Shown: one piece after another, positions 1,244-64,000 of the stretch | Layout: each line of letters starts with the position of its first letter | How positions within the stretch are numbered: position 1 is the stretch's first letter | IMG/VR virus record: IMGVR_UViG_3300020445_000001 | From: an uncultured virus (IMG/VR IMGVR_UViG_3300020445_000001) | Taxonomy: Duplodnaviria > Heunggongvirae > Uroviricota > Caudoviricetes | Strand: one strand, 5' to 3' | Length of the DNA: 64,000 bases | The notes under the pieces: generated by a model | Told to the model about the DNA's origin: nothing | The model's database searches: none | What the model saw: only the letters and a program-made list of their open reading frames with translations | Translations under genes and position numbers: made by a program

Positions 1244-1519
1244 TTATTTTGCTAATTTTCTTACTAAATCGTTCATTGTATAAGTTCCAGGCGATTCAGC
1301 TGTAACTAAATCTGCAAGTTGTAAGAACTCACTTAATGGCATACACTCTAATTCAAAATAACTAACATTTTCTTGTAGTTTTCTACTTGGTGTATAATCA
1401 CCACTCTTTATCCAATCATTACCCATTAGTAATTCTTGTACATTATTCTTAGCATATTTCTCAATCTTTTTTCTGTGTTCTATTCTTTCCATTTGTGTCA
1501 TTTTATAATTTTCTTTCAT
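1244..1519 (-). CDS. early hypothetical protein (probable start MKENYK at 1519; may start at 1603)
   Basis: AAGGAG RBS precedes the ATG at 1519; the track's longer start overlaps the upstream gene. Confidence 0.6.
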   Translation of the reverse strand: MKENYKMTQMERIEHRKKIEKYAKNNVQELLMGNDWIKSGDYTPSRKLQENVSYFELECMPLSEFLQLADLVTAESPGTYTMNDLVRKLAK

Positions 1520-1604
1520 AATATATTTTCTCCTTAAAGATTTGTATTCATTATTATTAGTAAAGTTGTCAATTAAATCAATTTGTTTTTCCAACATACT
1601 CATC

Positions 1605-1901
1605 TTATGACCCCTCATAAGAGATAGTAGTACCATTGTAATAAACCTTCATTACATTGTCAGAAGTGTCTACATCACCTCTACCGTCAGCTTCACACTC
1701 TACAATGTAGTAATAACCTTTTGAACAACCCTCTATACTACTATGTGCATTATTTACAGTATCAGTATAAAATGTATCCGTATTATACTTAACATCTTCT
1801 GATTGGTCATCAAATTTAGGACTTTGCTCATCATACCACCAATTACCACAAGGTGTCATTGTTTGACTTTTGTCATTTAAAACTTTAAAACATTTTTCCA
1901 T
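1605..1901 (-). CDS. early hypothetical protein (start MEKCFK)
   Basis: The track start at 1946 lies inside the promoter; ATG at 1901 follows the leader and RBS. Confidence 0.7.
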   Translation of the reverse strand: MEKCFKVLNDKSQTMTPCGNWWYDEQSPKFDDQSEDVKYNTDTFYTDTVNNAHSSIEGCSKGYYYIVECEADGRGDVDTSDNVMKVYYNGTTISYEGS

Positions 1902-1914
1902 AATTATTATTGCC

Positions 1915-1966
1915 TTTCTTTCTTGATTATGTCTTGATCTTAACATTGTTTTGATAACAAGTCAAG
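1915..1966 (-). promoter_or_regulatory. early sigma70-type promoter, repeat copy 3
   Basis: TTGACT (1965-1960), 17 nt, TAAGAT (1942-1937), same leader. Confidence 0.85.
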
Positions 1967-2018
1967 GCAATTTTTAAATTATATTAAATTATTTTTGGAT
2001 TGTTGTAGAACTACAACA

Positions 2019-2162
2019 CTATCTGGATTTGTTGTGTAAATCAAAAAGGGCTTTAACCTTTTCTTCTAATACTTGAATTCTCATATACATTTGCGATAAC
2101 ACTACAACTAATGTAATGAAACCTATAAACATTGGCCATAATGAATTGATTATCTCTAACAT
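2019..2162 (-). CDS. small membrane protein (47 aa, MLEIINSLWPMFIGFITLVVVLSQ...)
   Basis: Hand-translated; AGGAG RBS; N-terminal TM helix followed by a short coiled coil; late-like ATAAATA box upstream. Confidence 0.75.
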   Translation of the reverse strand: MLEIINSLWPMFIGFITLVVVLSQMYMRIQVLEEKVKALFDLHNKSR

Positions 2163-2225
2163 TTCTCTCTCCTATTAATATTTATTCAGAGTCAGAAAAA
2201 TGACGGTCATCTTTATTTGACAGAC

Positions 2226-2348
2226 TTACTTGTCAGAAATCTTACGGTAACCCCAACGGTTTTCAGATTTATCCCACAGACCCTTCATTTGTCTAGGAAT
2301 ACTGACTAGAAAGCTATTAAATTTTATTATGTTCTTTGTAATTTGCAT
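2226..2348 (-). CDS. small basic peptide (40 aa, MQITKNIIKFNSFLVSIPRQ...)
   Basis: Hand-translated; strong AAGGAG RBS. Confidence 0.65.
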   Translation of the reverse strand: MQITKNIIKFNSFLVSIPRQMKGLWDKSENRWGYRKISDK

Positions 2349-2496
2349 AATATTCTCCTTTTGCTATTAATTTGAACATTACGCCCTTTTAACTGATGGA
2401 CTATCAGCCACTTTTGAACCATATGGATGGTACTACTATTTATGTGTTAATCTCTCCACATAAGAGTTATAATGAGGCATACGAAAAGTAAAGAAA

Positions 2497-2706
2497 TTAA
2501 TCCCATTGTATATCAAACAATGTGTGCCTTAATTCTTTAATTCTCTTTTCATATGCCTCTTCCGTTTTAAACCATTCTAATATTTGTCCACTACCGAATT
2601 TCGGTATCTGAATTTCCACAAACCAAGTATTCACATCTTGGTCATATCCGTGAAAAATGTCAAACGATTCTATGGGTTTTTGACCCTTTAACCTCTGTCT
2701 TGGCAT
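2497..2706 (-). CDS. hypothetical protein
   Basis: ORF in operon context. Confidence 0.6.
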   Translation of the reverse strand: MPRQRLKGQKPIESFDIFHGYDQDVNTWFVEIQIPKFGSGQILEWFKTEEAYEKRIKELRHTLFDIQWD

Positions 2707-2828
2707 TTTTCACATCTACAATACTTACAAACTTCTATTTCATTTCCACTTCTGTCTATGTCACTTACATATCGTGTTCCACAATGAGAATCGTGTCCAC
2801 AATTTGAACAGAATGAACTAGCTATCAT
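2688..2828 (-). CDS. small Cys/His-rich metal-binding protein (46 aa)
   Basis: CxxCGHxxHC...CxxCxCxxC; ATG at 2828 overlaps the end of iscU. Confidence 0.65.
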   Translation of the reverse strand: MIASSFCSNCGHDSHCGTRYVSDIDRSGNEIEVCKYCRCEKCQDRG

Positions 2829-3210
2829 CACAACTGCACTTTCTTTTATAATCAGAGATCGCAGACTTGACAGCATCTTCAGCAAGAACTGAACAATGTA
2901 TCTTAACTGGGGGAAGTGCAAGTTCGGTTGCAATCTCGGTGTTTTTAATTGATTGTGCATCGTCAATGTGAGCTCCTTTCAGCCACTCAGTAACTAGCGA
3001 ACTACTGGCTATTGCAGAACCACATCCAAATGTTTTAAATTTTGCGTCTGTTATTTTACCTTTGTCATTAACTTCTATCTGAAGTTTCATAACATCACCA
3101 CACGCCGGCGCTCCTACTAAACCAGTACCTACATTTTTCTTATCTTTATCTAATGAACCAACATTTCTTGGGTTCTCATAATGGTCTAATAATTGTTTAC
3201 TGTACGCCAT
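2818..3210 (-). CDS. iscU: Fe-S cluster scaffold protein IscU
   Basis: DHYENPRNVG, GAPACGDVMKLQI, FKTFGCGSAIASSS, LPPVKIHCS motifs. Confidence 0.97.
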   Translation of the reverse strand: MAYSKQLLDHYENPRNVGSLDKDKKNVGTGLVGAPACGDVMKLQIEVNDKGKITDAKFKTFGCGSAIASSSLVTEWLKGAHIDDAQSIKNTEIATELALPPVKIHCSVLAEDAVKSAISDYKRKCSCDDS

Positions 3211-3243
3211 TTAAAACTCCTACAATAGTTATTGCATATATAT

Positions 3244-3552
3244 TTATGGTTTTCTCTTCTCTGTAATACTATTTTGACAAGGATAACCTATGCTTGTTGT
3301 AACAACAACGGTTTCTTTATCACTACATTGATAAAAACATTTTCTTTCTTCATCTTTTCTACTTCTATCTATTTCTTCATCATATATTCTACAGAATACA
3401 GAATACTCTTGTCGTTCACCATAAGTTCTTGCATTTTTCCTTTGATATGTTTTGCCTTTACCAAATGTTAAATCTGGAAAGGAAATCATTATTACATACC
3501 AAATTAATGAGGCAATAATAATTCTAGACACTAAAGGATTCTCCACAACCAC
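3244..3552 (-). CDS. hypothetical membrane/secreted Cys-containing protein
   Basis: N-terminal hydrophobic segment and 4 Cys; lies between iscA and iscU. Confidence 0.6.
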   Translation of the reverse strand: MVVENPLVSRIIIASLIWYVIMISFPDLTFGKGKTYQRKNARTYGERQEYSVFCRIYDEEIDRSRKDEERKCFYQCSDKETVVVTTSIGYPCQNSITEKRKP

Positions 3553-3850
3553 AACTTGACTTTGTGAGTGGATTATTTATTTTTAGGAAACTACCCATTA
3601 TCTCTTGTACATAATCTATTTCAGCACCCATTATATACATCTCTGCAACTTTATCTACTGCAAGTGATACTTCGTCTTTTATGTGAAATATGGTATGACC
3701 TCTATCAGGCTCATCTATATAATCCCACTTGTAACTGAAACCAGCACAACCACCACCACTTACACCAAAAGAAACAAACTTCTTGTCGTTCTTTTTTGCA
3801 ATGTCGTACAAATATTTTTTTGCGTTTTCTGTTATAGTAATCATAAACAA
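3524..3850 (-). CDS. iscA: A-type Fe-S carrier (IscA/HesB family)
   Basis: GGGCAGFSY and SCGCGESF motifs. Confidence 0.95.
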   Translation of the reverse strand: MFMITITENAKKYLYDIAKKNDKKFVSFGVSGGGCAGFSYKWDYIDEPDRGHTIFHIKDEVSLAVDKVAEMYIMGAEIDYVQEIMGSFLKINNPLTKSSCGCGESFSV

Positions 3851-3860
3851 TCCTTAAATA

Positions 3861-3868
3861 TATTTATA
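3861..3868 (-). promoter_or_regulatory. T4-type late promoter TATAAATA
   Basis: Exact consensus just upstream of iscA. Confidence 0.75.
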
Positions 3869-3870
3869 AT

Positions 3871-4752
3871 CTACTCATAATATTCCATTGTCACACCATT
3901 CTTTGTTTTGGTAATTTTTCGTGCAGTACCATCACCGATTGGTTCTTCTTTGACAAGTATCTTATTCTTTCTTTGTTTTCGCAACAACTTATCTTTAATT
4001 CTTTTTCTTTTATTTAAAACATCTCTAATCGTTATGTTTGCAGCCACAACTAAAAGAACTGCAAGTGGGTCAAATACAAATACTAAAATTAATATAACCC
4101 ATCTTACTGCATTTTCTAAAAATGTAAGTGCATTATCACCATATAATAATGCAGAGATATATTTTAGTGGGCCGACCTCAACCTCAAAGTTCTTAATCTC
4201 TAGTTCATACTCTGACTTCTCATCTAAATATACATCTATTTTTTCTTGTGATTTATTAACCATATTGGTTAGTTTTGTTCGTTCTTCTTCTTGACTTTCT
4301 CTTCTATCTAAACCTTTTGATACTGCACCTAATTCTACATATCTCTCTAGTGCCTTGTCTAGGTTTTCTAATTGTCTTTCTGCTCTGTCTATTGTCTTTT
4401 GTTCTGATGTAATTCTACTGTTTACTCTGTCAAGTTTTATTGACACTTGAGATGTATTTGTACCAGCGTCAATATGTGACTTAGATAGATAACCGAATAT
4501 ACCCATAGAAGTAATAAACATTAATATTACTACTGCACTTGTCAGATAATATTTTAGAACTTTGGGAACAGTTTTCCAGTTTTGATACAACCAAGATGCA
4601 GTAACAAGTTTACCTATCTCTAGAACAATTCCCATTACTGCAATAGAAAATGCAGCCGCAGAGAATATCGCCATTAAACCAACGATACTATAATAGGCTG
4701 CAACTGCACTAATACATAGTGCAACAGCTAATGTTACTAATCCAAAGAACAT
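3871..4752 (-). CDS. membrane protein with central coiled coil
   Basis: Three N-terminal TM helices, a coiled coil and a C-terminal TM ending in FDPLA. Confidence 0.8.
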   Translation of the reverse strand: MFFGLVTLAVALCISAVAAYYSIVGLMAIFSAAAFSIAVMGIVLEIGKLVTASWLYQNWKTVPKVLKYYLTSAVVILMFITSMGIFGYLSKSHIDAGTNTSQVSIKLDRVNSRITSEQKTIDRAERQLENLDKALERYVELGAVSKGLDRRESQEEERTKLTNMVNKSQEKIDVYLDEKSEYELEIKNFEVEVGPLKYISALLYGDNALTFLENAVRWVILILVFVFDPLAVLLVVAANITIRDVLNKRKRIKDKLLRKQRKNKILVKEEPIGDGTARKITKTKNGVTMEYYE

Positions 4753-4934
4753 AATTTCTGATATTTCTCTGTTACAAGCAATTTAGTTTTTAACCAAAAC
4801 TCTTTCATATCTAAGTCTTGGCAATCTTCTAATGCAGTATCGCAATTATTGATTAGTCTTTGATATCTAATCTTTATCTTTTCTATGTGGGTCATTTTCG
4901 CAAACTTGTTTAAAAAATATGTACTTTTCGCCAA
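4737..4934 (-). CDS. hypothetical protein (start may be MTHIEK)
   Basis: ORF in a packed operon. Confidence 0.55.
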   Translation of the reverse strand: MAKSTYFLNKFAKMTHIEKIKIRYQRLINNCDTALEDCQDLDMKEFWLKTKLLVTEKYQKLCSLD

Positions 4935-5118
4935 CTGGTGGGTTAAAAGGTATAGACTTTGCAGTAGGGTCTAGGGATTGTTTTCCCACAAATTCCCAGC
5001 TGCAGGGGCCATACAGTTCTTCCATTTTCTTTTTATGTGCAAAAAATTCTGCTTCATCATAAACAAATAATGAAGAGAAGATTGAGAAAACTATACTTAT
5101 TGCTGAAATTATTTCCAT
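4867..5118 (-). CDS. hypothetical protein with N-terminal TM/signal
   Basis: AGGA RBS and hydrophobic N-terminus. Confidence 0.65.
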   Translation of the reverse strand: MEIISAISIVFSIFSSLFVYDEAEFFAHKKKMEELYGPCSWEFVGKQSLDPTAKSIPFNPPVGEKYIFFKQVCENDPHRKDKD

Positions 5119-5119
5119 T

Positions 5120-5287
5120 TTAATATCCTAATATATTGTTATTTTTAAGAGGCTTACCCTCTCTGTAGTCGTTCTTTAAATAATGAACTAACTGTTCCAA
5201 AACATATTGCTCAGCACTAGTTCCATTTTCTAAAGTGTCTTCGTGGATTTCTTCTATCCAACCCAACAAATGTTTATATGTTATCAT
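5120..5287 (-). CDS. small hypothetical protein (55 aa, MITYKHLLGWIEE...)
   Basis: Hand-translated; ATGA overlap with the upstream gene; fills the gap. Confidence 0.65.
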   Translation of the reverse strand: MITYKHLLGWIEEIHEDTLENGTSAEQYVLEQLVHYLKNDYREGKPLKNNNILGY

Positions 5288-5565
5288 ATATTCGCACCAC
5301 CTTTCTTTATTAATATATCTTGTAAAGTTTTTTCGTCCATTCTATAATCATATTCATATTTATAAGTATCATCTTCAATAGACGGTGTACACTCAAAGAA
5401 CAAATCAATGGTATTACCAAAAAGGTTGATTGCAACATCATCTTGTTTTTCCAACTCAGCACGACAATCAACTTCACTCATTTGTTTTCGTTCTACTTGT
5501 ATCTCTTGGTGTTCACCATTAGGAAAATTAAATAGAATAGTTATTAATAATGTAAATTCTTTCAT
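5284..5565 (-). CDS. hypothetical protein
   Basis: ORF in operon. Confidence 0.65.
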   Translation of the reverse strand: MKEFTLLITILFNFPNGEHQEIQVERKQMSEVDCRAELEKQDDVAINLFGNTIDLFFECTPSIEDDTYKYEYDYRMDEKTLQDILIKKGGANI

Positions 5566-5577
5566 ATCACTATTTTA

Positions 5578-6093
5578 TCAGACTTGTCTTGACTTGTCAA
5601 CCCCCATAAAGTGTAAATATGTACTCATTATAAACTTAGGTTCTTTCTTAGGCATTTCACCTTCGTGTGGGTACATCCACATTGGTGGAAATACAACTAC
5701 ACTACCTTTTTCTGCTGGTACATATGTCTTTTCAAATTTAGTACCAGCCTCACTTGTATTTAAATAAAATAGTAGTGCAAGAAACCTTGTGCAATTTTGT
5801 ATATTACCAGCGTCAGTATGCCAAGGGAAACTGCCCTTATTTGGTTCATACCTTTTAACTCTAAAACCTTCTAATGCAAATGGTTCTGGGTGTTGATTTG
5901 TTTTGTCGTGCAACTCAAAATAATGGTCTGTAACTTTATAAACTATATCTTTCATATAGTTTGAAAGTTTATGTTGAGTATCTATTTCAACTTGTGTGAA
6001 ATTACCATAATCAATAGGCTCATTTGAATCATAATAATCCAACAAGTCTTTTACCAAATCATCTGGTAAAATGTTCTTGTATAGTTGTATCAT
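5578..6093 (-). CDS. 2OG-Fe(II) oxygenase (prolyl-hydroxylase-like)
   Basis: WHTD...FYLN...FP...YPHEG...K: HxD...H facial triad. Confidence 0.9.
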   Translation of the reverse strand: MIQLYKNILPDDLVKDLLDYYDSNEPIDYGNFTQVEIDTQHKLSNYMKDIVYKVTDHYFELHDKTNQHPEPFALEGFRVKRYEPNKGSFPWHTDAGNIQNCTRFLALLFYLNTSEAGTKFEKTYVPAEKGSVVVFPPMWMYPHEGEMPKKEPKFIMSTYLHFMGVDKSRQV

Positions 6094-6218
6094 TTATTTT
6101 TTCTTATCTTCCTACCTCTAATATAAACTATTAAGTTTATTGAAGTGTTAACAGTTACTGCAACAAGTATCCACCATTGCCACCAACTAATACCTATACA
6201 CTTCATAAACTCGTCCAT
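6090..6218 (-). CDS. small membrane protein (42 aa, MDEFMKCIGISWWQWWIL...)
   Basis: Hand-translated; TAATG and ATGA overlaps with both neighbours; single TM and basic tail. Confidence 0.7.
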   Translation of the reverse strand: MDEFMKCIGISWWQWWILVAVTVNTSINLIVYIRGRKIRKNK

Positions 6219-6646
6219 TAGTCTATAACCTTTCCACCTTTAATTCTACAACCCTCTCTAGGGCCTGCAATTATTCTTCTGGTCAATGGTATCTCTTCAT
6301 ATTCACCAATAAAATCACCAGCAAACTCACCACTTTCTAGATAGTTATTCAACCACCTAATATATCCTCGTGCATTAAGTCCTTTTGCTCTTTCTTGATT
6401 CTTGATTTTAGTATCAACACCGTGTCTTCTTGACGCCTTTTCAGAAGTTGATGCGATATCTTTTTGTGTCTTAATCCATTGTCTAACTTTTTTCATAGAC
6501 ATAAAGCCATCATCTGGTATTGCAAGTACCTTCGGTGAAATGTTTTTATATTGTGGTGGATTTTCTTTTAGTCGTTTTTCTCTTGCAAGTGCAAGTCTTT
6601 CAATCGCAGCCTGTCGTTGTTCTTCAGACATCTTTCGTTTAGCCAT
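6218..6646 (-). CDS. basic hypothetical protein
   Basis: GAGG RBS; follows the promoter at 6679-6710. Confidence 0.8.
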   Translation of the reverse strand: MAKRKMSEEQRQAAIERLALAREKRLKENPPQYKNISPKVLAIPDDGFMSMKKVRQWIKTQKDIASTSEKASRRHGVDTKIKNQERAKGLNARGYIRWLNNYLESGEFAGDFIGEYEEIPLTRRIIAGPREGCRIKGGKVID

Positions 6647-6678
6647 TATACCTCACTAATTAAATTATTATTGTCTAC

Positions 6679-6710
6679 ATACTAACATAGAAAATTATGT
6701 TTGTCAACCC
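6679..6710 (-). promoter_or_regulatory. sigma70-type promoter, GGGTTGACA class with extended -10
   Basis: GGGTTGACA, 17 nt, TG-n-TAGTAT. Confidence 0.7.
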
Positions 6711-7387
6711 TTTGCCAATTTTTTTAATCTTAACTGATTATCAATCCATTGTTTTGCAATGTAATTATTGACCTTTTTAGTTGCAAGTTTTCTAATTGAT
6801 TTAAATACTTTATTAAATACATTTTCGCCTGCATTATTATTGTCAACAACAACAAAGTTTTTAGTACCAAATAAATTTTGAAATTTACCAATGTTTGATT
6901 GTACATTGTTCCAATATGTTTTTACAATATCTGATGGTAGTTTTCTATCTCTTTTGTTATTTCTTTCTATTGCAGTATCTAATGAAGTATTAACAAAAAT
7001 CATATAAGTGTCATAACCCATATCTTGTAACAATCTTTTTTGTAAATTTATTTTACCATATTCTGCACCAGTACCATCTATAATCATACCAAGTCTACCA
7101 GCAACAAAATTCTTTTGCATTTTAGATGTAACTTCTTTTGCTCTTTTTCTTATTTTATCTCTTTCAAGAGTTTTTTCTGGACTCATATCTCTAAAATCCA
7201 AATCAAAGTCTGCATCTTTGAGTAATTTTTCAAATGCATTATCAGAGTTTACAATTTTCAGACCGAGCCCACCAGTGGTTTTTCTTGCTACAAAGGATTT
7301 ACCACTACCAGGCCCGCCTGCTAGAAAAAATGCTTTAAATATATTAGGGTCGTATACACCCTCTTGTAATTGGTCAAATGTCTTCAC
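6704..7387 (-). CDS. P-loop kinase (AAA_33 / zeta-toxin / PNK-like)
   Basis: GGPGSGKS Walker A, IIDGT and ERNxxRxR lid. Confidence 0.85.
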   Translation of the reverse strand: MKTFDQLQEGVYDPNIFKAFFLAGGPGSGKSFVARKTTGGLGLKIVNSDNAFEKLLKDADFDLDFRDMSPEKTLERDKIRKRAKEVTSKMQKNFVAGRLGMIIDGTGAEYGKINLQKRLLQDMGYDTYMIFVNTSLDTAIERNNKRDRKLPSDIVKTYWNNVQSNIGKFQNLFGTKNFVVVDNNNAGENVFNKVFKSIRKLATKKVNNYIAKQWIDNQLRLKKLAKG

Positions 7388-7533
7388 GCTGTTCTTCTTC
7401 CTAAAAACTTTCTCGTTCTTGCGAGGTAGAGTTTACTCACCTCCGTTGTTAAGTCATTTACATCATTATTTAGGTATCGTTCTTGTTTTTGAAAATTTAA
7501 TGTTCTTAACTTACGAGTTTGTTTATTAGTCAT
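7384..7533 (-). CDS. small hypothetical protein (49 aa, MTNKQTRKLRTLNF...)
   Basis: Hand-translated; AAGGAAG RBS; GTGA overlap with the next gene. Confidence 0.6.
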   Translation of the reverse strand: MTNKQTRKLRTLNFQKQERYLNNDVNDLTTEVSKLYLARTRKFLGRRTA

Positions 7534-7543
7534 TTTACTTCCT

Positions 7544-8953
7544 TTAAATTAACCTCTTAGGGTTGGGTGGTAGATTATTTGAATAAGGTTTAGTCACACT
7601 ATCTTTAATGACTGTCGCTTGTATAGTATGTTTTTTAGGATTACCAAAATCAAAAGTGTGTCTTAATCTTGTTATAACATATCTACCAGTTAGTCTTTCA
7701 TCATATAATTCTTCATCTTCATTATCTGAATCAGTTTTTGCTTTATATACATTCAATCTTATTACATCTGAAGCCTGTATTGATAAGTTACCCACCATTT
7801 CAATAGTCATACCCATTCTATCTAAAAATGCCATTTTATGATTTCTAGATAACAAATGATCACTTATTGAGGATTCCTCAAAAGGATAAATTGTATTTGG
7901 GTAAGGATTGATATTGTGGATTGAACCTTTTGGATTATTAAATCCAGAAGAGGATTGTACAGACAAATAAGAATCGTGAAAGTCTTCTACTGTTTTTCCA
8001 TCTTCATCTACTGGACTTGATATTGGAAATACTGGATAACCAGTTTCACCAATACCACTCTCTATATCATTTTTTTTGGAAAACGCATCAGAGTATCTAA
8101 ACTTTAAATCGTGATAAGTTTTATTGTATATATCGTGTAACAACATTCTTGAAGAATACATTCCATTCATTGTGTTTAACAGTACACTATTACTTATACT
8201 ATGGTCACTTTCTACTTGTCCTAATTGTCTAACTATATTTGCTTCTAATTGAGATGATTTAGATGGTTTATTATCATAAGTATCTGATGCACCTAATGTA
8301 AATGTTGTTTTAGTATTTTGTCTATTAATCATATCAAAAGATAAAAAATGCAAACCTTTACTAGTTTCAAAAAACACAAAAGGTGAGTCTTTTTTTGTTT
8401 TAGCTCTTTGTGCAATCATTTGTATTGCAGTTAAAGGTCGTAAATTAGGAATCACCACTCTCTCTAAACCAACACTATCATCAGTTAAAAATCTTTTATT
8501 ACTACCTAAAAATTGTTTCTCTTTTACTAATCTACGAACTATTTCTGACATATTACCAGAAAAACTTTGGGATATTCTGGTTCTAGAATTTCTCATATAT
8601 TCTCTTGATGCAAGAGTTAATGTAACAAATTTACCTTGCCCCTCATTTTTTTGTGTTACTGATGTAACGATAAGTGGGTCTGTTGTGAAATCTATTGAAA
8701 TATCTTCGGTGGAGGGTGTAACTAATTTTAAGTAACAAAATTCATTACCTACAATACCATTATTTAATACCAAATCATTTGTATCTGCAAAAGATATGTT
8801 TGCAGTCATAAAACCTTGCATTATATCTTCATACACACTTACAATACTTAATATACCTTCAAGGCTCACATCAGTTCCGTGATGTGTTTTAAGTTTACAT
8901 TCTTCAACTTCAAATGTACCACTATAATTGTATTGACTTAATCCAACAGACAT
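7544..8953 (-). CDS. baseplate hub protein (gp27-like)
   Basis: Follows gp53; SVYEDI, FFET..G.HF and LTGRYVITRLRH motifs typical of hub proteins. Confidence 0.7.
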   Translation of the reverse strand: MSVGLSQYNYSGTFEVEECKLKTHHGTDVSLEGILSIVSVYEDIMQGFMTANISFADTNDLVLNNGIVGNEFCYLKLVTPSTEDISIDFTTDPLIVTSVTQKNEGQGKFVTLTLASREYMRNSRTRISQSFSGNMSEIVRRLVKEKQFLGSNKRFLTDDSVGLERVVIPNLRPLTAIQMIAQRAKTKKDSPFVFFETSKGLHFLSFDMINRQNTKTTFTLGASDTYDNKPSKSSQLEANIVRQLGQVESDHSISNSVLLNTMNGMYSSRMLLHDIYNKTYHDLKFRYSDAFSKKNDIESGIGETGYPVFPISSPVDEDGKTVEDFHDSYLSVQSSSGFNNPKGSIHNINPYPNTIYPFEESSISDHLLSRNHKMAFLDRMGMTIEMVGNLSIQASDVIRLNVYKAKTDSDNEDEELYDERLTGRYVITRLRHTFDFGNPKKHTIQATVIKDSVTKPYSNNLPPNPKRLI

Positions 8954-10721: not shown

Positions 10722-10728
10722 ATAAATA
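10721..10728 (+). promoter_or_regulatory. T4-type late promoter TATAAATA
   Basis: Exact consensus 6 nt before the gp4 start. Confidence 0.8.
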
Positions 10729-10733
10729 TTCCT

Positions 10734-12486: not shown

Positions 12487-12497
12487 AGGAGTACATT

Positions 12498-15612: not shown

Positions 15613-15616
15613 TGAA

Positions 15617-15700: not shown

Positions 15701-15723
15701 TAATTTACTCAAAATATTATCTT

Positions 15724-16372: not shown

Positions 16373-16394
16373 ATTTGCCTCTCCTACTCACTAC

Positions 16395-51405: not shown

Positions 51406-51437
51406 TTTTCAATTTTTCCATAGTTCTATTACTACTA

Positions 51438-51445
51438 TATTTATA
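51438..51445 (-). promoter_or_regulatory. T4-type late promoter TATAAATA
   Basis: Exact consensus heading the 51405-43872 operon. Confidence 0.8.
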
Positions 51446-51465
51446 AATTGAAATTTGTCAAGTCT

Positions 51466-55503: not shown

Positions 55504-55506
55504 AAT

Positions 55507-56493: not shown

Positions 56494-56599
56494 CTTAACT
56501 CCTTTTGTTTTAATGGATATCACTTAATTGTGATACTATTATAATATAACACACTTTCTCAATAACACAACTATATGGTGTTCCCCCAAATGTGTATAG

Positions 56600-57580: not shown

Positions 57581-58776
57581 TTTGTTTCCTTATATGGTTT
57601 TAGGATATTTTCATAAATCTTTTTTGATAGATAATGTAATTGTAAAGGTGCAACCATCAACCCTATCCTCGCAAGGTTGTCATCTAATTTACCAACAAGT
57701 TTATAATCTTCTGGTAATGTCATTATTCTTGCAGCCTCAATAGTAGTAAAAACTCTATCTTCTTCTGGGTGTAAATGAACTGCAAGAGATTGTCTTAATC
57801 CTTGTTCTGATAGAGTATGACTTGGTTGATTCCAAGGCACTCTTCTTGATTGATAAAAACTATGTTTTTCTTTCCATTCACTTTTACCCCACTTCTTTCT
57901 ATGTTCAATTACTTTTCTATACCAAGGCCCGACAACATCATCACCAACAGACATAACTTTGTCTGGATTCTTTTGTAATCTTTTTAACCACTTATATTTA
58001 GCACTTTTCTTCATAGACTCTTTTAATTCAAATGCTTCAGATATATTTTTATTTGTCTTTTGTATATCATATATTGCATCTTTAATATTATATCTTTCTT
58101 CTTTTGGGTCTGGAAATATAGAACTATCTAAACACATAAAAGGTAAACCTATATCATCTAATACATCTTCTCTAACTGATACTATAAAAACTCTTTCTCT
58201 CTTTTGTGGAACTCCGTGTTCGTGTCCTTTTAAAACTCTCCATACTGTATGATATCCGTGTGATTCAAAATCTTTAACCATTCTATTTAAATGATCTCTT
58301 GCATAATCCATTGTTAAACCTTTAACATTTTCACAAACAACAACTCTAGGTTTTAAATCACCAACAATTCTAATTTGTTCCCAAGTTAAATCTTCAATGT
58401 TTTTTTGTTTCATACCATATGCAGTTTTTTCTTGATTCCAACCTTTTTGTTTTGTACCAGACATACTAAATGGTGGACAAGGTGGTGAACCATCTAATAT
58501 ATCTAACTCACCAGGCTTTAGTCCAGTCATTTCCATAATCTTTTGACCAGTAACATTTTTAATATCACCACAGATATGTTGTGTGTTTGGAAAGTTTGCA
58601 AGATAATCATTTACTGCAACTTGTTGAAACTCATTTACAAATAAACATTCACCACCAGATAATTTATATCCACAAGAAGAACCACCTCCACCAGCAAAGA
58701 AGCTGATAAAATTAAATAGTTTTCTATTTGCAGACTTTTCTAAATCGTCTAATGTATATCTAAAATAATTACCCAA
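57577..58776 (-). CDS. DNA (cytosine-5) methyltransferase
   Basis: FAGGGG, GSPPC, ENV and VPQ.RER motifs, plus motif IX/X R.MT.P. Confidence 0.95.
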   Translation of the reverse strand: MGNYFRYTLDDLEKSANRKLFNFISFFAGGGGSSCGYKLSGGECLFVNEFQQVAVNDYLANFPNTQHICGDIKNVTGQKIMEMTGLKPGELDILDGSPPCPPFSMSGTKQKGWNQEKTAYGMKQKNIEDLTWEQIRIVGDLKPRVVVCENVKGLTMDYARDHLNRMVKDFESHGYHTVWRVLKGHEHGVPQKRERVFIVSVREDVLDDIGLPFMCLDSSIFPDPKEERYNIKDAIYDIQKTNKNISEAFELKESMKKSAKYKWLKRLQKNPDKVMSVGDDVVGPWYRKVIEHRKKWGKSEWKEKHSFYQSRRVPWNQPSHTLSEQGLRQSLAVHLHPEEDRVFTTIEAARIMTLPEDYKLVGKLDDNLARIGLMVAPLQLHYLSKKIYENILKPYKETK

Positions 58777-61258
58777 AGAAATCCTCTAAGTTACCTTGTG
58801 TTCCATAAGTTCTATCTATATTCCATTTTATACTATTTAAAATTAATGTCAAGGGGTCAATGAAAACTTTTTCAAACTGTATATCATAATCAACAAAACT
58901 GTGTATATCAAATTCTTTAGGAAGTTTAGTAATGTATGTGATTACATTTGAAGTAAATGGATTAGGTTGTTTTAAATAAACAAACTTAATCTTATCACCC
59001 TCTTGTATCAAAGGGTATTTGTTTATAAGTTTATTTTGTTTTATCTTATGATTGTATATCAATGCACCTTTGATATGCATAGGTGTTGACTTTTTAAATG
59101 TTGTTCCACTATCAAAGTATTTTGATAAACCATTTACTGAACGAGGAAACGAAATCAATTCTGGTTTTACTTTAAGAAACTCTTCTCTAAAATTAATTAC
59201 AAACTTGTTTAATTCTTTTTCATCACTTGTCATTATAAGTTCAAGTGCATCTTTAATCTTTTGTCTACACATTGCAGGCGTTGATGACTTGACAGCTTCA
59301 ATACCCATCATCTTCAACTTAGGTTCTTTGTATGATACACCTTCACTATCCCAAACATTTAGAATATATCTTTTCTTTGCAACCCAAATACCTTTGTCTG
59401 CAATCACTTCTCGTTTCATAAACATCTTATTTGCAAATGCATTTGTATATTGTTTAAGTTCATCATACGATTTTGTAATGTATGGTTCAATAGATTCTGA
59501 TGCAACCTTGTCTAGAAAGTTTATTGTTTTAGATAATGCATTATCACTTTTAATTGTTTTAGTAACAAATTTATCCATAGTCAAATAAACAGAATCAGTA
59601 TCAGATGCAATCACATAATCATCATCTGTTTTTAAAACATTGTTTAGATATTTGTTAAGTTTGTTTTCAATCCAACGAATAGATAATTGACCACTCTTTG
59701 TAATACCCTCTGCAATCGCTTTATCGTAATAACGAAAATATTGATTACCTATTGCACCATAAGCAGAGTTCAAAGAAATCTTACGAGCCATCTGAATATT
59801 GTTATAACGACTTATCAGTTTTTTATACTTGTTGTCTTTTGTGTTTTCAAATTCTTGTTGTGCAGATAACATTTTCTTTTTGTAAGTCACTCGTTCATTG
59901 TATAACTCTTCCATCATAGTTGGTAAGAAACCTTTTTTATCTGTTCTAAACAATGCACCATTTGGTGTCATAGTAGTTCTATCTGGTATGTCTAGTTTAA
60001 TACCTTTTAACATATCATCAACTATAATGTCTTGATGTTTACTTTTCAATAATGTTTCTGGTGAGAGATTATACTGCATAATTAAATGTGGATATAGTGA
60101 ATTCAAATCAAATGATACAACCCACTTATGTAAACCAGTAATCGGTTCTTTTACATATGCACCTTCATATTGTTCGTTTTTGTTATAAGACTTTTTCTGT
60201 GGTATAACAATCTTTCTTTTTCTCAAGAAGTTATAGATTAGAATATCCCAATATTTAACTTGACCAAACACATCTGAATAATTTACTTTACCCTCATAGG
60301 CCATAGTAAGTGCAAGGTCAATCAAACCCATCTTGTCTTCTAGTTTGTCAACTATTTCCACATCTTGAATATTATAATCAATAAAAGATTGAAAGTCTTT
60401 TTCATACCACTCTCTAAATGTTTCGTATGGATTTTCATCTTTCTTTTCACCAAGTTCAACACTTGCAATATAATCTAACTTGTATGATTCTTGTTTGGTA
60501 TAAGTAAACTTTTGATAGAGTTGTAAATAATCATATTGAGATACACCCATAATATCATACATCAAATGATTTCTACCCATACTATAAATTTGTCTTGCAC
60601 TAACATTTTTCCAAGGCGATAGTTCTCGCATTTTATCTTCACCACAAACTTGTTTGATTCTATTTGCAAGATAAGGAATATCAAAGAAGTCTGTATTCCA
60701 ACCAGTAATAACATCTGGATAATTCTTTGTCCAGAAAGACATAAACTCCATAATCAAATCGTGTTCGTTAGGACAACGAATATAAGTGACATCTTCTCTT
60801 GTATTTTTGTAGGGTTGAATACCCCACACTATAATCTTTTTAGATTGTTGATTTTTTACTGTAATAGAAAGTAAAGGTTCTATTGCAGATTCTGGATTAG
60901 GAAAACCATTTTCACATTGAACCTCAATATCAATCGTCATAATTAATAGTTTGTCAATGTTCCAATTTACCTTTTGTGGAAATGTATCTGAAATATATGT
61001 GTATGCGAATCTGTTTAGTCCGTGAACAAGATGAGGCTGACTTTCGTATTTAAGAAGAAAATCTTTTGCATCTTTTATACAATCAAATTGATATGGTGTT
61101 ACCGATTTGCCATCAAGAGTTTTCCAATCCGTTTGTTTCATTACTGGAACAAACAAAGTTGGTTTGTATTTTAATCTAAAACTTACTCTTTGATTTTTAT
61201 CAACACCACGAACTAAAAGAAAATTACCCCATTGTACTACATTAGTATAAAAATCCAT
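58769..61258 (-). CDS. gp43: family B DNA polymerase gp43
   Basis: DIE exonuclease motif; DLNSLYP, K..LNS.YG and DTDS motifs. Confidence 0.98.
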   Translation of the reverse strand: MDFYTNVVQWGNFLLVRGVDKNQRVSFRLKYKPTLFVPVMKQTDWKTLDGKSVTPYQFDCIKDAKDFLLKYESQPHLVHGLNRFAYTYISDTFPQKVNWNIDKLLIMTIDIEVQCENGFPNPESAIEPLLSITVKNQQSKKIIVWGIQPYKNTREDVTYIRCPNEHDLIMEFMSFWTKNYPDVITGWNTDFFDIPYLANRIKQVCGEDKMRELSPWKNVSARQIYSMGRNHLMYDIMGVSQYDYLQLYQKFTYTKQESYKLDYIASVELGEKKDENPYETFREWYEKDFQSFIDYNIQDVEIVDKLEDKMGLIDLALTMAYEGKVNYSDVFGQVKYWDILIYNFLRKRKIVIPQKKSYNKNEQYEGAYVKEPITGLHKWVVSFDLNSLYPHLIMQYNLSPETLLKSKHQDIIVDDMLKGIKLDIPDRTTMTPNGALFRTDKKGFLPTMMEELYNERVTYKKKMLSAQQEFENTKDNKYKKLISRYNNIQMARKISLNSAYGAIGNQYFRYYDKAIAEGITKSGQLSIRWIENKLNKYLNNVLKTDDDYVIASDTDSVYLTMDKFVTKTIKSDNALSKTINFLDKVASESIEPYITKSYDELKQYTNAFANKMFMKREVIADKGIWVAKKRYILNVWDSEGVSYKEPKLKMMGIEAVKSSTPAMCRQKIKDALELIMTSDEKELNKFVINFREEFLKVKPELISFPRSVNGLSKYFDSGTTFKKSTPMHIKGALIYNHKIKQNKLINKYPLIQEGDKIKFVYLKQPNPFTSNVITYITKLPKEFDIHSFVDYDIQFEKVFIDPLTLILNSIKWNIDRTYGTQGNLEDFFG

Positions 61259-61264
61259 AATATA

Positions 61265-61295
61265 ACTATATCACCTTTTTAAAAATAGTCAACCC
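61265..61295 (-). promoter_or_regulatory. sigma70-type promoter, GGGTTGAC class, directly before gp43
   Basis: GGGTTGACT, 16 nt, TG-n-TATAGT; ATG 7 nt downstream. Confidence 0.65.
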
Positions 61296-61528
61296 TCAAT
61301 TAAATCTTTTTCCTCTGGAAAGTATTTGTTCATTGCCTCAATTAAATCTTCATATTTAGCGACCTCGTGCAGTTCTTTTTCTATTTCACTTACGATATCA
61401 CCGTGTTCACCAATTCCTCTTGGATTGTCAAGTAACACCTCAACATTTGCAAGGTGTTTCTTAATATGTCCTTCAGAGTGAAGTAAAAATGCAGATTTTA
61501 ATTTTTGTTTAATCGCTTTTTGGCTCAT
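61289..61528 (-). CDS. conserved T4-like hypothetical protein
   Basis: NVEV.L.NP.GIGEH.D motif. Confidence 0.8.
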   Translation of the reverse strand: MSQKAIKQKLKSAFLLHSEGHIKKHLANVEVLLDNPRGIGEHGDIVSEIEKELHEVAKYEDLIEAMNKYFPEEKDLIEG

Positions 61529-61934
61529 CAGTTTCCTCTTTCTTTTTTCCTATATTATATTTTGGTTCTAAAATCCAATCACCTTTTTCTTTAAAAGAGA
61601 TAACTTTTATTTGTGATAGTGGAGCTTTGGTTTCTGGTTCGTTCTCAAAACTAACTAGTCCCCAATCTTTTAAAAGACAAGCTATAGAATTTCTTCTTCC
61701 TATATCGTTATCTGATATGTTGTGCTCTTTACCATCAAGTGCAAATAGTTCTTTGAAGTGAACTATGTAATATTTGCCTTGTTTGTGTAGTATGTGACAA
61801 GATTGAAAAAGTTTCTTTTCTTTTCTAGATGATACTCCGATTCTGGAAAGTGTTTCCCTAACCTTTAAAAAATCATCTGGTTCTTTCAAAGAAACTTCTA
61901 ACATCTTATCTGTGTTCCATAAAGTTTCGTTCAT
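61509..61934 (-). CDS. regA: translational repressor RegA
   Basis: DDFLKVRETL.RIG...QSCHILHKQG.YYIVHFKELF. Confidence 0.97.
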   Translation of the reverse strand: MNETLWNTDKMLEVSLKEPDDFLKVRETLSRIGVSSRKEKKLFQSCHILHKQGKYYIVHFKELFALDGKEHNISDNDIGRRNSIACLLKDWGLVSFENEPETKAPLSQIKVISFKEKGDWILEPKYNIGKKKEETDEPKSD

Positions 61935-62332
61935 TTTTTCATTCCACCTTTATTCAGTTTACTTTTGATAAACTCTATTTGTTTATCGTTAAGTATGTCA
62001 AGAATTGATTTAGCTTTAGAGTTATTATATCCATAATATTCTTTTACATACTCAAGATTTTTAGATTTACTTTCCTTTATCCAAGGGGCATATCTTTTTC
62101 TTGTTCTTATAGTATTTAGTAAAAAGTCATATTGCAACTTCTTGTCTTTGTCTAAAACTGAACCATAACGATTCATTTCATTCACTAATAATATACAATC
62201 ATTATGTGGTGCAAGACATTTATTTACAATAAAAGGACTATACTTTTTTTCGTACATATCGTCCTCACCGTCCATAAGATTATTCTTATTAAAGTTTAAA
62301 GAATTCAGATACTCTTTTAATTCATATGCCAT
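61931..62332 (-). CDS. gp62: clamp loader small subunit gp62
   Basis: Y.PFIVNK.L...NEMN...QYDF...YYGY..KA. Confidence 0.93.
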   Translation of the reverse strand: MAYELKEYLNSLNFNKNNLMDGEDDMYEKKYSPFIVNKCLAPHNDCILLVNEMNRYGSVLDKDKKLQYDFLLNTIRTRKRYAPWIKESKSKNLEYVKEYYGYNNSKAKSILDILNDKQIEFIKSKLNKGGMKK

Positions 62333-63096
62333 TACTTTGGGCTCTGTGCAAGTATCTTTTGGTCTGCAAGTAAAGGCATAGTTTTTAGTTCTATCTCAAA
62401 GTTTGCAGATAAAGTTCTTCTTTCCCCCTCACCATAGAATGGCGATACAGAGTGTTTTAACCAATTAGGAAACATTAATAATTTACCAACTTCTGGTTTT
62501 ACAAATGCTTCTTGAACTGGTTTTAATTGTTTAATATCACTAGTACAATTCATACCCCAACTAAAAAATGTGAAACCATCAGTAGTACCAGATGCATTAT
62601 TTAAATCTAGTTTAAGTCCACCAGTTTCATATTCTTTTGCACTACCAGATAGTTTTTCTATCTGTGGTGGTACTTTTAAATATAAAATGCAAGACATTCC
62701 AGTAGGCGTTTTGACGCCGTGATCGTGTAGTGGATTATAATCACCTTCATAACTATGAACTGTCCACATAGATACACAATCGCTTTTTGCATCTGCACAA
62801 CCTAGAAATTGTAGATATGAATGTGTGAAACCTTCAAGAAGTGCTTTCAAACCTTTTACTGGCTTATCTTCAAAGTTCATATCTAATTGTGCAGACTTTT
62901 TATTTGATTTGATTTGTCCTACAAGTTCGTGTGAAAAACTTTTTGCACTTCCTCTTACACCATCAATATACTCATTAAATTCATCTGTAACATATTCTGG
63001 TAAAAATACTTCCAACATATTTAATGCTGGTTTAGTAACCATTGACATCTTAATATCTTTTGCAAGACTAATTGCCTCTTCATTTGTATCAACCAT
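62332..63096 (-). CDS. 2OG-Fe(II) oxygenase
   Basis: GDYNPLHDH...YLKVP...FP.WL.H.V.PF...RR..S.N. Confidence 0.85.
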   Translation of the reverse strand: MVDTNEEAISLAKDIKMSMVTKPALNMLEVFLPEYVTDEFNEYIDGVRGSAKSFSHELVGQIKSNKKSAQLDMNFEDKPVKGLKALLEGFTHSYLQFLGCADAKSDCVSMWTVHSYEGDYNPLHDHGVKTPTGMSCILYLKVPPQIEKLSGSAKEYETGGLKLDLNNASGTTDGFTFFSWGMNCTSDIKQLKPVQEAFVKPEVGKLLMFPNWLKHSVSPFYGEGERRTLSANFEIELKTMPLLADQKILAQSPK

Positions 63097-63104
63097 AATA
63101 ACTC

Positions 63105-64000
63105 CTATTTAAATTTACACTCACCCATCAACTGTGTTAGACAAGCAAGTAAATTAATTTCTTGGTCGGCAACAAATGCAGCTTTGTATTGATAATCTGC
63201 AATCAATAAAACTGCTGTTGCGATTGAACGACCATCTTCAAAATACTCATAAAGATTGTCATACATTTTTCTAAATATTCTAGCAGGGTCATTATCTAAA
63301 TTATTAACAACCCACTTTCTCATACTTGTAAAATCTTTCTCTCTCAAGAATGTGATTAAATCTCTCATATTCTTTTCAGAAAGGTTTACTAATATTCCAC
63401 TATCAATTTGTCCAGATGTAGCATATCTTTGTAATTCATTAAGACATCTTCTCCAATCTGGAAAGAACTTCATAATTAATTCTGCAACAACTCTTTCTTC
63501 ATACTTTACATTCTCTGTTGTGAGAACAGTATTAATACTAGACATAAATTGTTTTGCAAGATTAGGTTTTTCAGTTTTTGGAATATTAAATTCAACCACA
63601 CTACAACGACTATGTAAAGGTTCTATGATTCTATTCTTAAAATTACAAGTAAGAATAAATCCACAGTTCTTGTGAAACTCCTCTATCATACCACGAAGTG
63701 CTGGTTGTGTTGATTGTGCATTTAGATAATCTGCCTCATCAATAATGATAAACTTTCTACTACCCTCTAACGACATAGTAGATGCAAAGTTTTTCATTTT
63801 ATTACGAAGTACATCAATACCAGATTCTTCAGAACCGTTAATCATAATATAATCATAACCTATTTGTTCTAACATTGCTTTTGCAACTGTTGTTTTACCA
63901 ACACCAGGCCCGCCTGTTAGTAATAGATTAGGAATACCATTTTTAACAAACTCAGAAAAAGTTTTCTTTAGAGTTTCTGGTAATACACAATCTTGTATAG
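63105..64000 (-). CDS. gp44: clamp loader large subunit gp44 (5' end outside the window)
   Basis: Frame open to the window edge with GPGVGKTT; DEAD, TCN and SRC motifs. Confidence 0.96.
   Translation of the reverse strand, partial: IQDCVLPETLKKTFSEFVKNGIPNLLLTGGPGVGKTTVAKAMLEQIGYDYIMINGSEESGIDVLRNKMKNFASTMSLEGSRKFIIIDEADYLNAQSTQPALRGMIEEFHKNCGFILTCNFKNRIIEPLHSRCSVVEFNIPKTEKPNLAKQFMSSINTVLTTENVKYEERVVAELIMKFFPDWRRCLNELQRYATSGQIDSGILVNLSEKNMRDLITFLREKDFTSMRKWVVNNLDNDPARIFRKMYDNLYEYFEDGRSIATAVLLIADYQYKAAFVADQEINLLACLTQLMGECKFK

What the first reader, a model, noticed from the sequence alone, without database searches (positions are those of the whole stretch)
1286..63910. CCWGG sites seem to survive only when they overlap a GpC
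Seen, by eye and not exhaustively: every CCWGG I found (about 29) is in GCCWGG or CCWGGC context. Examples lie near 1286, 7308, 9335, 9961, 11839, 14660, 14987, 22594, 24180, 29475, 31982, 39880, 43520, 46142, 49611, 58511 and 63904. The only CCGG I noticed is GCCGGC, near 3104. A forced G/C flank is unlikely in such AT-rich DNA. Inference: unprotected CCNGG/CCWGG sites were purged by a nuclease, while sites whose outer C lies in GpC are shielded by the phage MTase/TET. The genome composition would then reveal the MTase specificity.
Basis: partly seen in the sequence, partly recalled or inferred. Interest (0 to 1): 0.85.

Follow-up and report, generated by a model that had tools for sequence, protein, structure and literature searches.

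The report
Restriction sites survive under GCY marks
This marine T4-like phage has removed many nuclease target words from its DNA and keeps only copies that touch a G-C-(C/T) step, the context that its cytosine methylase family is reported to modify, which suggests that a sparse DNA mark can protect a whole genome once the sequence has evolved to fit it.

Summary
Confirmed and wider than reported. All 29 CCWGG are GC-flanked. Codon shuffles give 23-24 unflanked sites; 0 are seen. 27 of 28 coding sites are Pro-Gly codons, which cannot avoid CCNGG. The rule also covers CCTG (69 of 70), CCYGC, GGNNCC, CCCG and CTGCAG. The shielding context is GC[C/T], not any GpC: GCA does not rescue here, GCG does not in relatives. 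That matches GpC[C/T], published for phage methylase/TET clusters with this gene order. Cultured phage Melnitz (methylase 76% identical) obeys it genome-wide, 68 of 68 CCWGG; four cultured myophages without TET and three other OM43 phages do not. Against a simple reading: relatives holding an amino-methyltransferase, a GNAT/DruA-like gene or nothing in the same slot show the same shadow, so the writer is not unique; no methylation was measured. The scan noted this shadow on three other genomes; four literature searches did not find it. It bears on a stated doubt (Pyle 2023) that GpC-only marks can protect a genome.

The parts
91..63916 (.). Window-wide rule: CCWGG (29 of 29), CCTG (69 of 70), CCCG (8 of 8), CCGC (16 of 16), CTGCAG (6 of 6), GGNNCC, CCGG (1 of 1) and CATG (1 of 1) occur only with a GC[C/T] cytosine inside or one base beside the word; ACGT, TCGA, CGCG, GGWCC and CAATTG are absent
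57577..58776 (-). C5-cytosine DNA methyltransferase (399 aa, P0001), intact SPPC and ENV motifs; candidate writer of the GC[C/T] mark
   Evidence: Pfam PF00145 E 8e-55, TIGR00675, alignment, 76% to Melnitz gene 5
56600..57580 (-). TET/JBP dioxygenase (326 aa, P0002), HxD..H and downstream Arg visible; would turn 5mC into 5hmC
   Evidence: Pfam PF12851 E 1e-11, over cut-off; translation; 78% to Melnitz gene 6
55507..56523 (-). 338-aa protein of no Pfam family; variable slot in relatives; weak lead to a ParB-like N-terminus
   Evidence: Atlas nearest named cluster has ParB_N in 20% of members
54979..55503 (-). P-loop nucleotide kinase, candidate for phosphorylating 5hmC (end product unknown)
   Evidence: Pfam Ploopntkinase3 E 8e-6, 26 bits, just under the 27-bit cut-off
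58769..61258 (-). Family B DNA polymerase; upstream border of the swappable modification cassette
53946..54986 (-). UvsX recombinase; downstream border of the cassette
3104..3109 (.). The only CCGG, as GCCGGC
41871..41877 (.). The only CATG, as CATGGCT (GCCATG on the minus strand): GC[C/T] cytosine beside the word; GCATG is absent (0 against 20-29 expected)
5003..5006 (-). The one CCTG whose nearest GC[C/T] cytosine is two bases away rather than one

Best explanation
After replication the phage's C5-methylase marks cytosines in GC[C/T]; TET oxidises them to 5hmC and the kinase probably adds a further group. Hosts in the phage's range carry restriction nucleases for several C-containing words (CCNGG, GGNCC, CCYGC, GGNNCC, CTGCAG, and in this lineage CCTG and CCCG). 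A marked cytosine inside the word or beside it, on one strand only, blocks cutting. Selection removed every site that the mark cannot cover; where the protein forces a site (Pro-Gly is always CCNGG, Gly-Pro always GGNCC) it chose rare codons or a G-ending upstream codon that put the site under a mark. Words that cannot contain or touch GC[C/T] (ACGT, GGWCC) fell to zero. Shown here: the compositional rule, its GC[C/T] specificity, the codon steering, the genes and their order, the rule in relatives. From the literature: GpC[C/T] specificity and 5hmC formation for this family. Inferred: that this enzyme marks this genome, that the mark blocks cutting, that the cutters are host restriction enzymes.
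For: Window: 27 of 28 coding CCWGG are in-frame Pro-Gly; 16 of 16 Gly-Pro use GGG/GGC, which are 91 of 1068 Gly codons; 13 of 13 Pro-Gly without a 5' G use GGC. Specificity: WCCYGC is followed by C/T in 8 of 8 (window, p 5e-5), 69 of 72 (Melnitz) and 21 of 21 (G007) cases; WCCTGCG 0 against 13.1 expected in Melnitz; GCY covers 194 of 196 word occurrences, RGCY only 80. Complete Melnitz genome: CCWGG 68 of 68, CCGG 15 of 15, CTGCAG 14 of 14 shielded; it has this methylase/TET pair and no hit to the amino-methylase, the DruA-like protein or PF01555. Unflanked CCWGG is common in Mosig (89 of 123), HTVC008M (112 of 136), P-TIM68 (110 of 151), OM43 phages MEP301/401/402 (13 of 21, 30 of 37, 32 of 40) and G005, 78% identical to the window (11 of 16). 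S-B43, whose GC modification was measured by nanopore (PMC12783734), keeps 7 CCGG in the 200 kb read, 7 of 7 GC-flanked. Burke 2021 for specificity and layout.
Against: The shadow is not tied to methylase/TET: in the polymerase-selected sample flanked/unflanked CCWGG are 125/2 in 22 DruA-like loci, 16/0 in 4 amino-methylase loci and 10/2 in 5 loci with an empty slot, against 74/0 in 19 loci with this methylase family. GC-marking CmoX-type cassettes do not always give a CCWGG shadow (31/41 in 12 loci; S-B43 has 276 unflanked). Controls are not fully clean: Mosig has HCCGCA 0 against 27 expected while GCCGCA is normal, and YGCGCR is 0 there too. GATC (11 sites) is depleted without any shield. 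Some methylase/TET loci keep unshielded GGWCC or CCYGC (e.g. L020, L066, L079). Other OM43 phages do not avoid CCWGG at all, so the host nuclease is not shown. GGWCC absence alone is what a GGWCC cutter gives without any mark. No methylation was measured on this phage.
Confidence: 0.62

Rival explanations
1. Same GC[C/T] mark, but the cutter is phage-encoded: a nuclease for degrading host DNA or DNA of co-infecting phages, with the phage's own genome spared by purge plus mark (as T4 endonuclease II spares hydroxymethylated DNA; recalled, not from a call).
For: The core panel (CCNGG, GGNCC, CCYGC) is shared by lineages 60% apart in polymerase that probably infect different hosts; most purged words share CC or CC-N-G; three OM43 phages ignore CCWGG; Hiraoka 2022 found few restriction systems in marine MAGs (passage).
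Against: The full panel includes many classic palindromes (ACGT, TCGA, CATG, CAATTG, AGTACT, CTTAAG) that differ between lineages, as expected from different host systems; no GIY-YIG gene in Melnitz, G001 or G007; no nuclease gene was found that follows the shadow among the window's genes (the window is only part of the genome).
Confidence: 0.15
2. The mark is real but written by something else: a host methylase, or a phage gene outside this slot; the shadow in this window may be partly inherited from a population that swaps cassettes.
For: Shadow in viruses with four different cassette types and with an empty polymerase-UvsX slot; the contigs are fragments, 4-44% complete; Seong 2022 argue that much viral methylation is host-derived (passage).
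Against: Inside the window's own polymerase clade the shadow follows cassette type; complete Melnitz has no other candidate among those tested; other OM43 phages lack the shadow (different host strains); in SMRT data RGCY-like marks were on 9 of 163 viral genomes (plus VGCY and GCT calls) and 1 of 233 prokaryotic genomes in the rows seen; the amino-methylase has no close cellular relative in the GTDB scan (6 hits, 48-59%, MAG contigs).
Confidence: 0.15
3. No modification is involved: the pattern is the sum of separate avoided words and codon or mutation biases.
For: Some read-outs (GGWCC, YGCGCR) can be explained by ordinary avoidance; GCA is preferred over GCT in control phages too.
Against: The same exception applies to at least six unrelated words and at several positions on both strands; words such as HCCWGGD are not natural targets; shielded forms are above expectation (28 against 5-6); no excess C/T change at GC[C/T] between the window and G001.
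Confidence: 0.05

Closest known systems
Phage C5-methyltransferase + TET/5mYOX clusters, clade II/B layout (Burke et al. 2021, PMC8256090)
   Same: Polymerase, C5-MT, TET, then P-loop kinase; composition gives GC[C/T] with no 5' preference, as measured for these enzymes on E. coli DNA.
   Different: Burke measured enzymes in E. coli and did not report, in the four of six parts read, a genome-wide conditional purge; the end product of kinase-type clusters is unknown; clade placement by sequence could not be tested.
Post-replicative GpC glycosylation pathways (Pyle et al. 2023, bioRxiv 10.1101/2023.12.21.572611)
   Same: Same methylase/TET core; close relatives of this virus carry TAGT glycosyltransferases in the slot.
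   Different: That paper judges genome-wide protection by GpC-only marks unlikely and says it is not known whether phage DNA is the substrate; the shadow argues that the genome has been fitted to the mark.
Restriction-site avoidance in phage genomes (established knowledge)
   Same: Near-total loss of palindromic 4-6-mers (ACGT, TCGA, CATG, CAATTG, AGTACT).
   Different: Avoidance is conditional on a flanking mark, and steers codon choice at Pro-Gly, Gly-Pro, Pro-Ala and Ala-Gly.
CmoX carboxymethylcytosine system of Synechococcus phage S-B43 (PMC12783734)
   Same: Also marks a GC motif; CmoX-like genes (one 62% identical) occupy the same slot in relatives; S-B43 keeps only GC-flanked CCGG (7 of 7).
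   Different: The window's enzyme is 35% identical to it, sits beside TET and lacks adjacent CmoA/CmoY; S-B43 and many CmoX-like relatives keep unflanked CCWGG.
RGCY/VGCY m4C and m5C motifs on marine myovirus-like genomes (Hiraoka et al. 2022, PMC8919816)
   Same: Direct SMRT evidence that marine myoviruses mark GCY-type words, and separately CCNGG, CCWGG, GGWCC, GGHCC, the words purged here.
   Different: No enzyme was assigned; here YGCY shields as well as RGCY.

Membership tests
Phage C5-MT/TET cluster (Burke clade II/B) | C5-MT with catalytic cysteine | tested here: met
   PF00145 E 8e-55; invariant S97-P98-P99-C100 and E149-N150-V151
Phage C5-MT/TET cluster (Burke clade II/B) | TET/JBP with HxD..H and 2OG-binding Arg, parallel and within five genes of the MT | tested here: met
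   PF12851 over cut-off; motifs read from the translation; genes overlap at 57577-57580
Phage C5-MT/TET cluster (Burke clade II/B) | DNA polymerase upstream, glycosyltransferase or P-loop kinase downstream of TET | tested here: met
   kinase hit is 1 bit under the Pfam cut-off
Phage C5-MT/TET cluster (Burke clade II/B) | Placement in clade II rather than clade I by sequence | not testable with these tools
   SI appendix not readable; P0001 has an insert of about 20 aa in the TRD region relative to CmoX-like enzymes, not compared with Burke's sequences
Phage C5-MT/TET cluster (Burke clade II/B) | Methylates GpC[C/T] and forms 5hmC | tested here: inconclusive
   Composition points to GC[C/T]; no biochemical test possible
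Classical restriction-site avoidance | Depletion of short palindromes beyond codon expectation | tested here: met
Classical restriction-site avoidance | Depletion independent of flanking bases | tested here: not met
   Flanked CCWGG 28 against 5-6 expected, unflanked 0 against 23-24; Mosig's purged CTGCAG, CACTG and CAGGG are lost in both classes
CmoX carboxymethyltransferase system | CmoX with CmoA and CmoY neighbours | tested here: not met
   Neighbours are polymerase and TET; 35% to the S-B43 enzyme; the Cx-SAM-binding Arg was not examined
RGCY-specific methylation | Purine required before GCY | tested here: not met
   RGCY covers 80 of 196 word occurrences, GCY 194 of 196; 20 of 29 sites are YGCCWGG

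The most novel reading that the evidence does not exclude
Composition lock-in: once a phage genome has kept nuclease sites only under GC[C/T] marks it depends on that context, so the polymerase-UvsX slot can be swapped only among writers of the same context. Four unrelated chemistries would then be interchangeable alleles: 5mC/TET hypermodification, CmoX carboxymethylation, an uncharacterised 400-aa amino-methyltransferase (predicted m4C at GCY, the likely source of the unassigned RGCY/VGCY m4C on marine myoviruses) and a GNAT-fold DruA/Mom-like enzyme followed by glycosyltransferases (predicted to act at or beside GCY). The phage would vary its chemistry against modification-dependent nucleases while holding the address fixed, and genome composition would predict the specificity of unknown DNA-modifying enzymes.
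Probability: 0.4. Interest if true: 0.87.

Novelty: new variant of a known kind. Interest (0 to 1): 0.72.

Why it matters
The discoverers of phage methylase/TET pathways wrote that GpC-only marks seem unlikely to protect a genome and that it is unknown whether phage DNA is the substrate (Pyle 2023, passage). The shadow is in-nature evidence that the mark falls on phage DNA, is nearly complete (0 unshielded sites among dozens expected) and protects because the genome was fitted to it, down to codon choice at Pro-Gly and Gly-Pro. It gives a sequence-only way to read a DNA-modifying enzyme's specificity and the nuclease pressures on uncultured phages, predicts targets for two uncharacterised enzyme families, and names a cultured phage-host pair (Melnitz on OM43 H5P1) in which the claim can be tested directly.

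Tried and rejected
No whole genome is held for the window, so window statistics rest on 64 kb plus relatives. 'CCWGG is the target' was rejected as too narrow. 'Any GpC shields' was rejected (GCATG 0 against 20-29; WCCTGCA 0 against 20). RGCY was rejected. YGC-N-GGW, GGWCC/GGSCC and YGCGCR were dropped as sole evidence: the first two can arise from narrower target words without a mark, and YGCGCR is also 0 in Mosig. Deamination at marked C: C/T differences between the window and G001 at GCC (0.058) and GCT (0.047) are not above other contexts. A shared writer among the window's other genes: none follows the shadow. A GIY-YIG nuclease: none in 5 records. C5 or amino-methylase elsewhere in five DruA-like or empty-slot contigs: none, but they are 4-22% complete, so this shows little. 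Single-sequence fold of the DruA-like protein failed (pLDDT 37); the alignment-based model (pLDDT 79) gave only weak GNAT matches (best E 3e-3); PDB sequence searches found nothing. The record of OM43 phage Venkman, which shares Melnitz's host strain, was not located, so the same-host control is missing. No paper on a CCTG/CAGG restriction system was found. PMC13326640 proved unrelated. Contigs of four public runs cover the cassette but say nothing on methylation. No tRNA in the window.
Full report
1. Observation. The window is 31% G+C. An exhaustive count finds 29 CCWGG, all GCCWGG or CCWGGC, one CCGG (GCCGGC at 3104-3109), and no CCSGG, GGWCC or CGCG. With the window's frequency of G before CC, 29 of 29 has p about 2e-20. 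In the coding sequence, 40 synonymous shuffles under each of two nulls (codon usage; codon usage plus neighbouring bases) give 23.2 and 23.8 unflanked CCWGG against 0 seen, and 6.1 and 5.3 flanked against 28 seen.

2. What the rule is. The sites are 26 GCCTGG and 3 GCCAGG, and CCAG is abundant (412) while CCTG is rare (70, both strands). All 70 CCTG touch a GC: 55 GCCTG, 9 followed by GCC/GCT, 3 preceded by GCC, 3 CCTGGC. Scoring a site as shielded when a GC[C/T] cytosine lies inside it or one base away gives 69 of 70; the exception has its mark two bases off. WCCTGW is 0 against 68-106 expected. A systematic scan of 4-6-base and gapped words against 8 shuffles finds the same behaviour for CCNGG, GGNCC, CCNGC, GGNNCC, CCCG and CTGCAG: unshielded copies 0, shielded copies at or above expectation; ACGT, TCGA, CAATTG and AGTACT are simply gone. 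GATC (11 sites) is depleted with no shield and is unexplained. One mark on one strand suffices: 20 of 29 CCWGG have a single one.

3. Why any survive. Pro-Gly always spells CCNGG and Gly-Pro always GGNCC. 27 of 28 coding CCWGG are in-frame Pro-Gly, one is Ala-Trp. In automatically called ORFs, 13 of 13 Pro-Gly without a G-ending codon before them use GGC, and 16 of 16 Gly-Pro use GGG or GGC, codons that make up 91 of 1068 glycines; Gly-Pro is also scarce (O/E 0.46). The survivors are the sites that the proteins force.

4. Specificity read from composition. WCCYGC is followed by C or T in 8 of 8 cases against a background of 29% (p 5e-5). GCATG is 0 against 20-29, WCCTGCA 0 against 20: GCA does not shield. 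The window is too small to test GCG (0 against 1.3), but Melnitz has WCCTGCG 0 against 13.1 and contig G007 0 against 6.1. All four bases occur before GCCWGG (5, 7, 4, 13), and RGCY covers only 80 of 196 word occurrences against 194 for GCY. The shield is GC[C/T].

5. The genes. The window is part of a T4-like marine myophage (its cassette region is held by marine and seawater metagenome runs). On the minus strand lie DNA polymerase (58769-61258), a C5-methylase (57577-58776), a TET/JBP dioxygenase (56600-57580), a 338-aa unknown, a P-loop kinase (54979-55503) and UvsX. Burke et al. [quoted passage not shown] This matches the compositional read-out, but I could not place P0001 in their tree.

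6. Cultured relative and controls. OM43 phage Melnitz has the pair at 76% and 78% identity and is only about 70% alike in DNA where it aligns. Over its complete 141.5 kb, 68 of 68 CCWGG, 15 of 15 CCGG and 14 of 14 CTGCAG are shielded, GGWCC is 0, and WCCYGC is followed by C/T in 69 of 72; 40 of 40 Gly-Pro use GGG/GGC and 28 of 28 unflanked Pro-Gly use GGC. Its panel differs in part: CCTGA is purged, CCTGT is not. It has no hit to PF01555 or to the two alternative cassette proteins. Unflanked CCWGG is common in Mosig (89 of 123, 140 of 141.5 kb read), HTVC008M (112 of 136), P-TIM68 (110 of 151), MEP301, MEP401 and MEP402 (13 of 21, 30 of 37, 32 of 40), and in S-B43 and S-CRM01 (276 and 184 sites). 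The Melnitz paper (PMC9004378, passages) mentions the methylase only as possible protection. S-B43, whose GC-motif carboxymethylation was measured (PMC12783734, passages), keeps 7 CCGG in the 200 of 214 kb read, all GC-flanked, with 0 unshielded against 77 expected in coding sequence, though shielded ones are depleted too (5 against 26). Controls are imperfect: Mosig lacks HCCGCA (0 against 27) but not GCCGCA.

7. The natural experiment, and where it complicates the story. The polymerase-UvsX interval is a swappable cassette. Viruses 96-98% identical in polymerase carry methylase/TET with different tails, a 400-aa N6/N4 methylase, or a DruA-family protein. All show the shadow, in their cassette DNA too, on small counts, and CCTG sites found only in those relatives are shielded in 12 of 12 cases; G005, with two other C5 enzymes and 78% identity, has 53 of 67 unshielded. 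On a quick polymerase tree of 101 dereplicated loci (of 171 with the needed region; the careful search did not finish), loci with at most 15% unshielded sites were 24 of 27 for methylase/TET, 4 of 5 methylase with TET not seen, 43 of 44 amino-methylase at 60% or more, 3 of 3 close DruA-like, 0 of 5 other C5, 0 of 3 distant amino-methylase, 0 of 5 distant DruA-like, 0 of 8 with no cassette seen and 0 of 1 with both; positive types interleave. That sample was drawn by the cassette genes. A second sample drawn by two polymerases alone (141 new loci) gave flanked/unflanked CCWGG after dereplication of 74/0 (19 loci, this methylase family), 125/2 (22, DruA-like), 16/0 (4, amino-methylase), 10/2 (5, empty slot), 41/1 (24, cassette not visible), 1/0 (1, TET only) and 31/41 (12, other C5, some positive, some not). 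So the shadow is widespread in this phage group and is not a marker of methylase/TET alone. One 'other C5' enzyme tested is 62% identical to CmoX. The DruA-like protein models as a GNAT-like fold on weak matches, is annotated as Mom in one phage record and is often followed by TAGT glycosyltransferases; Mu Mom modifies adenine in SAS (PMC13219725, passages), so a GCY role would be new. Hiraoka 2022 (PMC8919816; passages and part 10 of 21 of the supplement) measured RGCY, VGCY, YGCYGC and GCT marks, mostly called m4C, on marine myovirus-like genomes, rarely shared with prokaryotes; Seong 2022 (PMC9516812, passages) instead ascribe much viral methylation to hosts.

8. Mechanism. Most likely the phage marks GC[C/T], the mark blocks host restriction enzymes when it lies in or beside their site, and selection has removed or re-flanked everything else (0.62). 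Shown: rule, specificity, codon steering, genes, distribution. Inferred: that P0001 writes the mark on phage DNA, that it blocks cutting, and who cuts. Rivals: a phage-encoded cutter (0.15), another writer or inherited history (0.15), no mark (0.05).

9. Novelty. The enzymes and plain site avoidance are known. Four searches of the open-access library found no report of avoidance conditional on a phage mark; subscription journals and bioRxiv supplements are not covered. Pyle et al. 2023 (passages) doubt that GpC-limited marks give genome-wide protection. This scan noted the shadow on three other genomes, unchecked notes that I saw after reaching the reading and do not count as support; a further look-up for the amino-methylase, Melnitz and CCTG results returned nothing. 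New here: the codon proof, the GCA/GCG exclusion, a lineage-specific CCTG purge, a cultured test case, and the cassette comparison. Class: new variant of a known kind; interest 0.72.

Noticed in passing
window 7308-7320 and 63904-63916: Two unrelated genes (AAA kinase and clamp loader) share the same 13 bases: both encode the Walker A stretch Gly-Gly-Pro-Gly, which can be written only in shielded codons.
   Followed up: partly
window 24426-25151, 2818-3210, 3524-3850, 29273-29539, 23729-24433, 22953-23522: Auxiliary genes: a SoxY-SoxZ fusion, NifU-N and HesB-type Fe-S proteins, ribosomal protein S21, PhoH and an outer-membrane beta-barrel; SoxYZ hints at a sulfur-oxidising host.
   Followed up: no
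window, 11 GATC sites (e.g. 1936, 2857, 7858): GATC is strongly depleted but survivors have no GC[C/T] shield; zero in several relatives.
   Followed up: partly
window-wide and G007: The non-palindromic 4-mer CCTG/CAGG is purged in this lineage and in a distant amino-methylase virus (WCCTGW 0 in 66.6 kb) but not in Melnitz; no matching restriction system found in the papers searched.
   Followed up: partly
Melnitz, G007, G012: CCTCC/GGAGG is purged when unshielded (Melnitz 0 against 79), so it may be a nuclease word and not only Shine-Dalgarno avoidance.
   Followed up: no
L084:3317-5792, L096:1754-7172, L086:7403-11440: The amino-methylase is followed by varied tailoring genes (PLP enzyme and GNAT; asparagine synthase and hydroxylase; glycosyltransferase), suggesting hypermodification built on an amino-methyl mark.
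   Followed up: partly
L314:6348-10566, L383:2124-6508: DruA/Mom-like GNAT-fold gene followed by TET-associated glycosyltransferases, with no methylase or TET in the slot.
   Followed up: partly
L324:5359-6819: GmrSD N-terminal domain gene inside a DruA-like cassette (weak Pfam hit).
   Followed up: no
L049; L392:2563-3507: L049 carries methylase/TET and the amino-methylase together; in L392 TET lies upstream of the polymerase.
   Followed up: no
S-B43 (L163-L172): All 7 CCGG in 200 kb are GC-flanked in a phage with measured GC carboxymethylation.
   Followed up: yes
Mosig (L185-L191): HCCGCA absent (0 against 27) while GCCGCA is normal, in a phage without this methylase or TET.
   Followed up: partly
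window 5578-6093, 21924-22463, 51466-52038, 62332-63096: Four further 2OG-Fe(II) oxygenases, one between the two clamp-loader genes.
   Followed up: no
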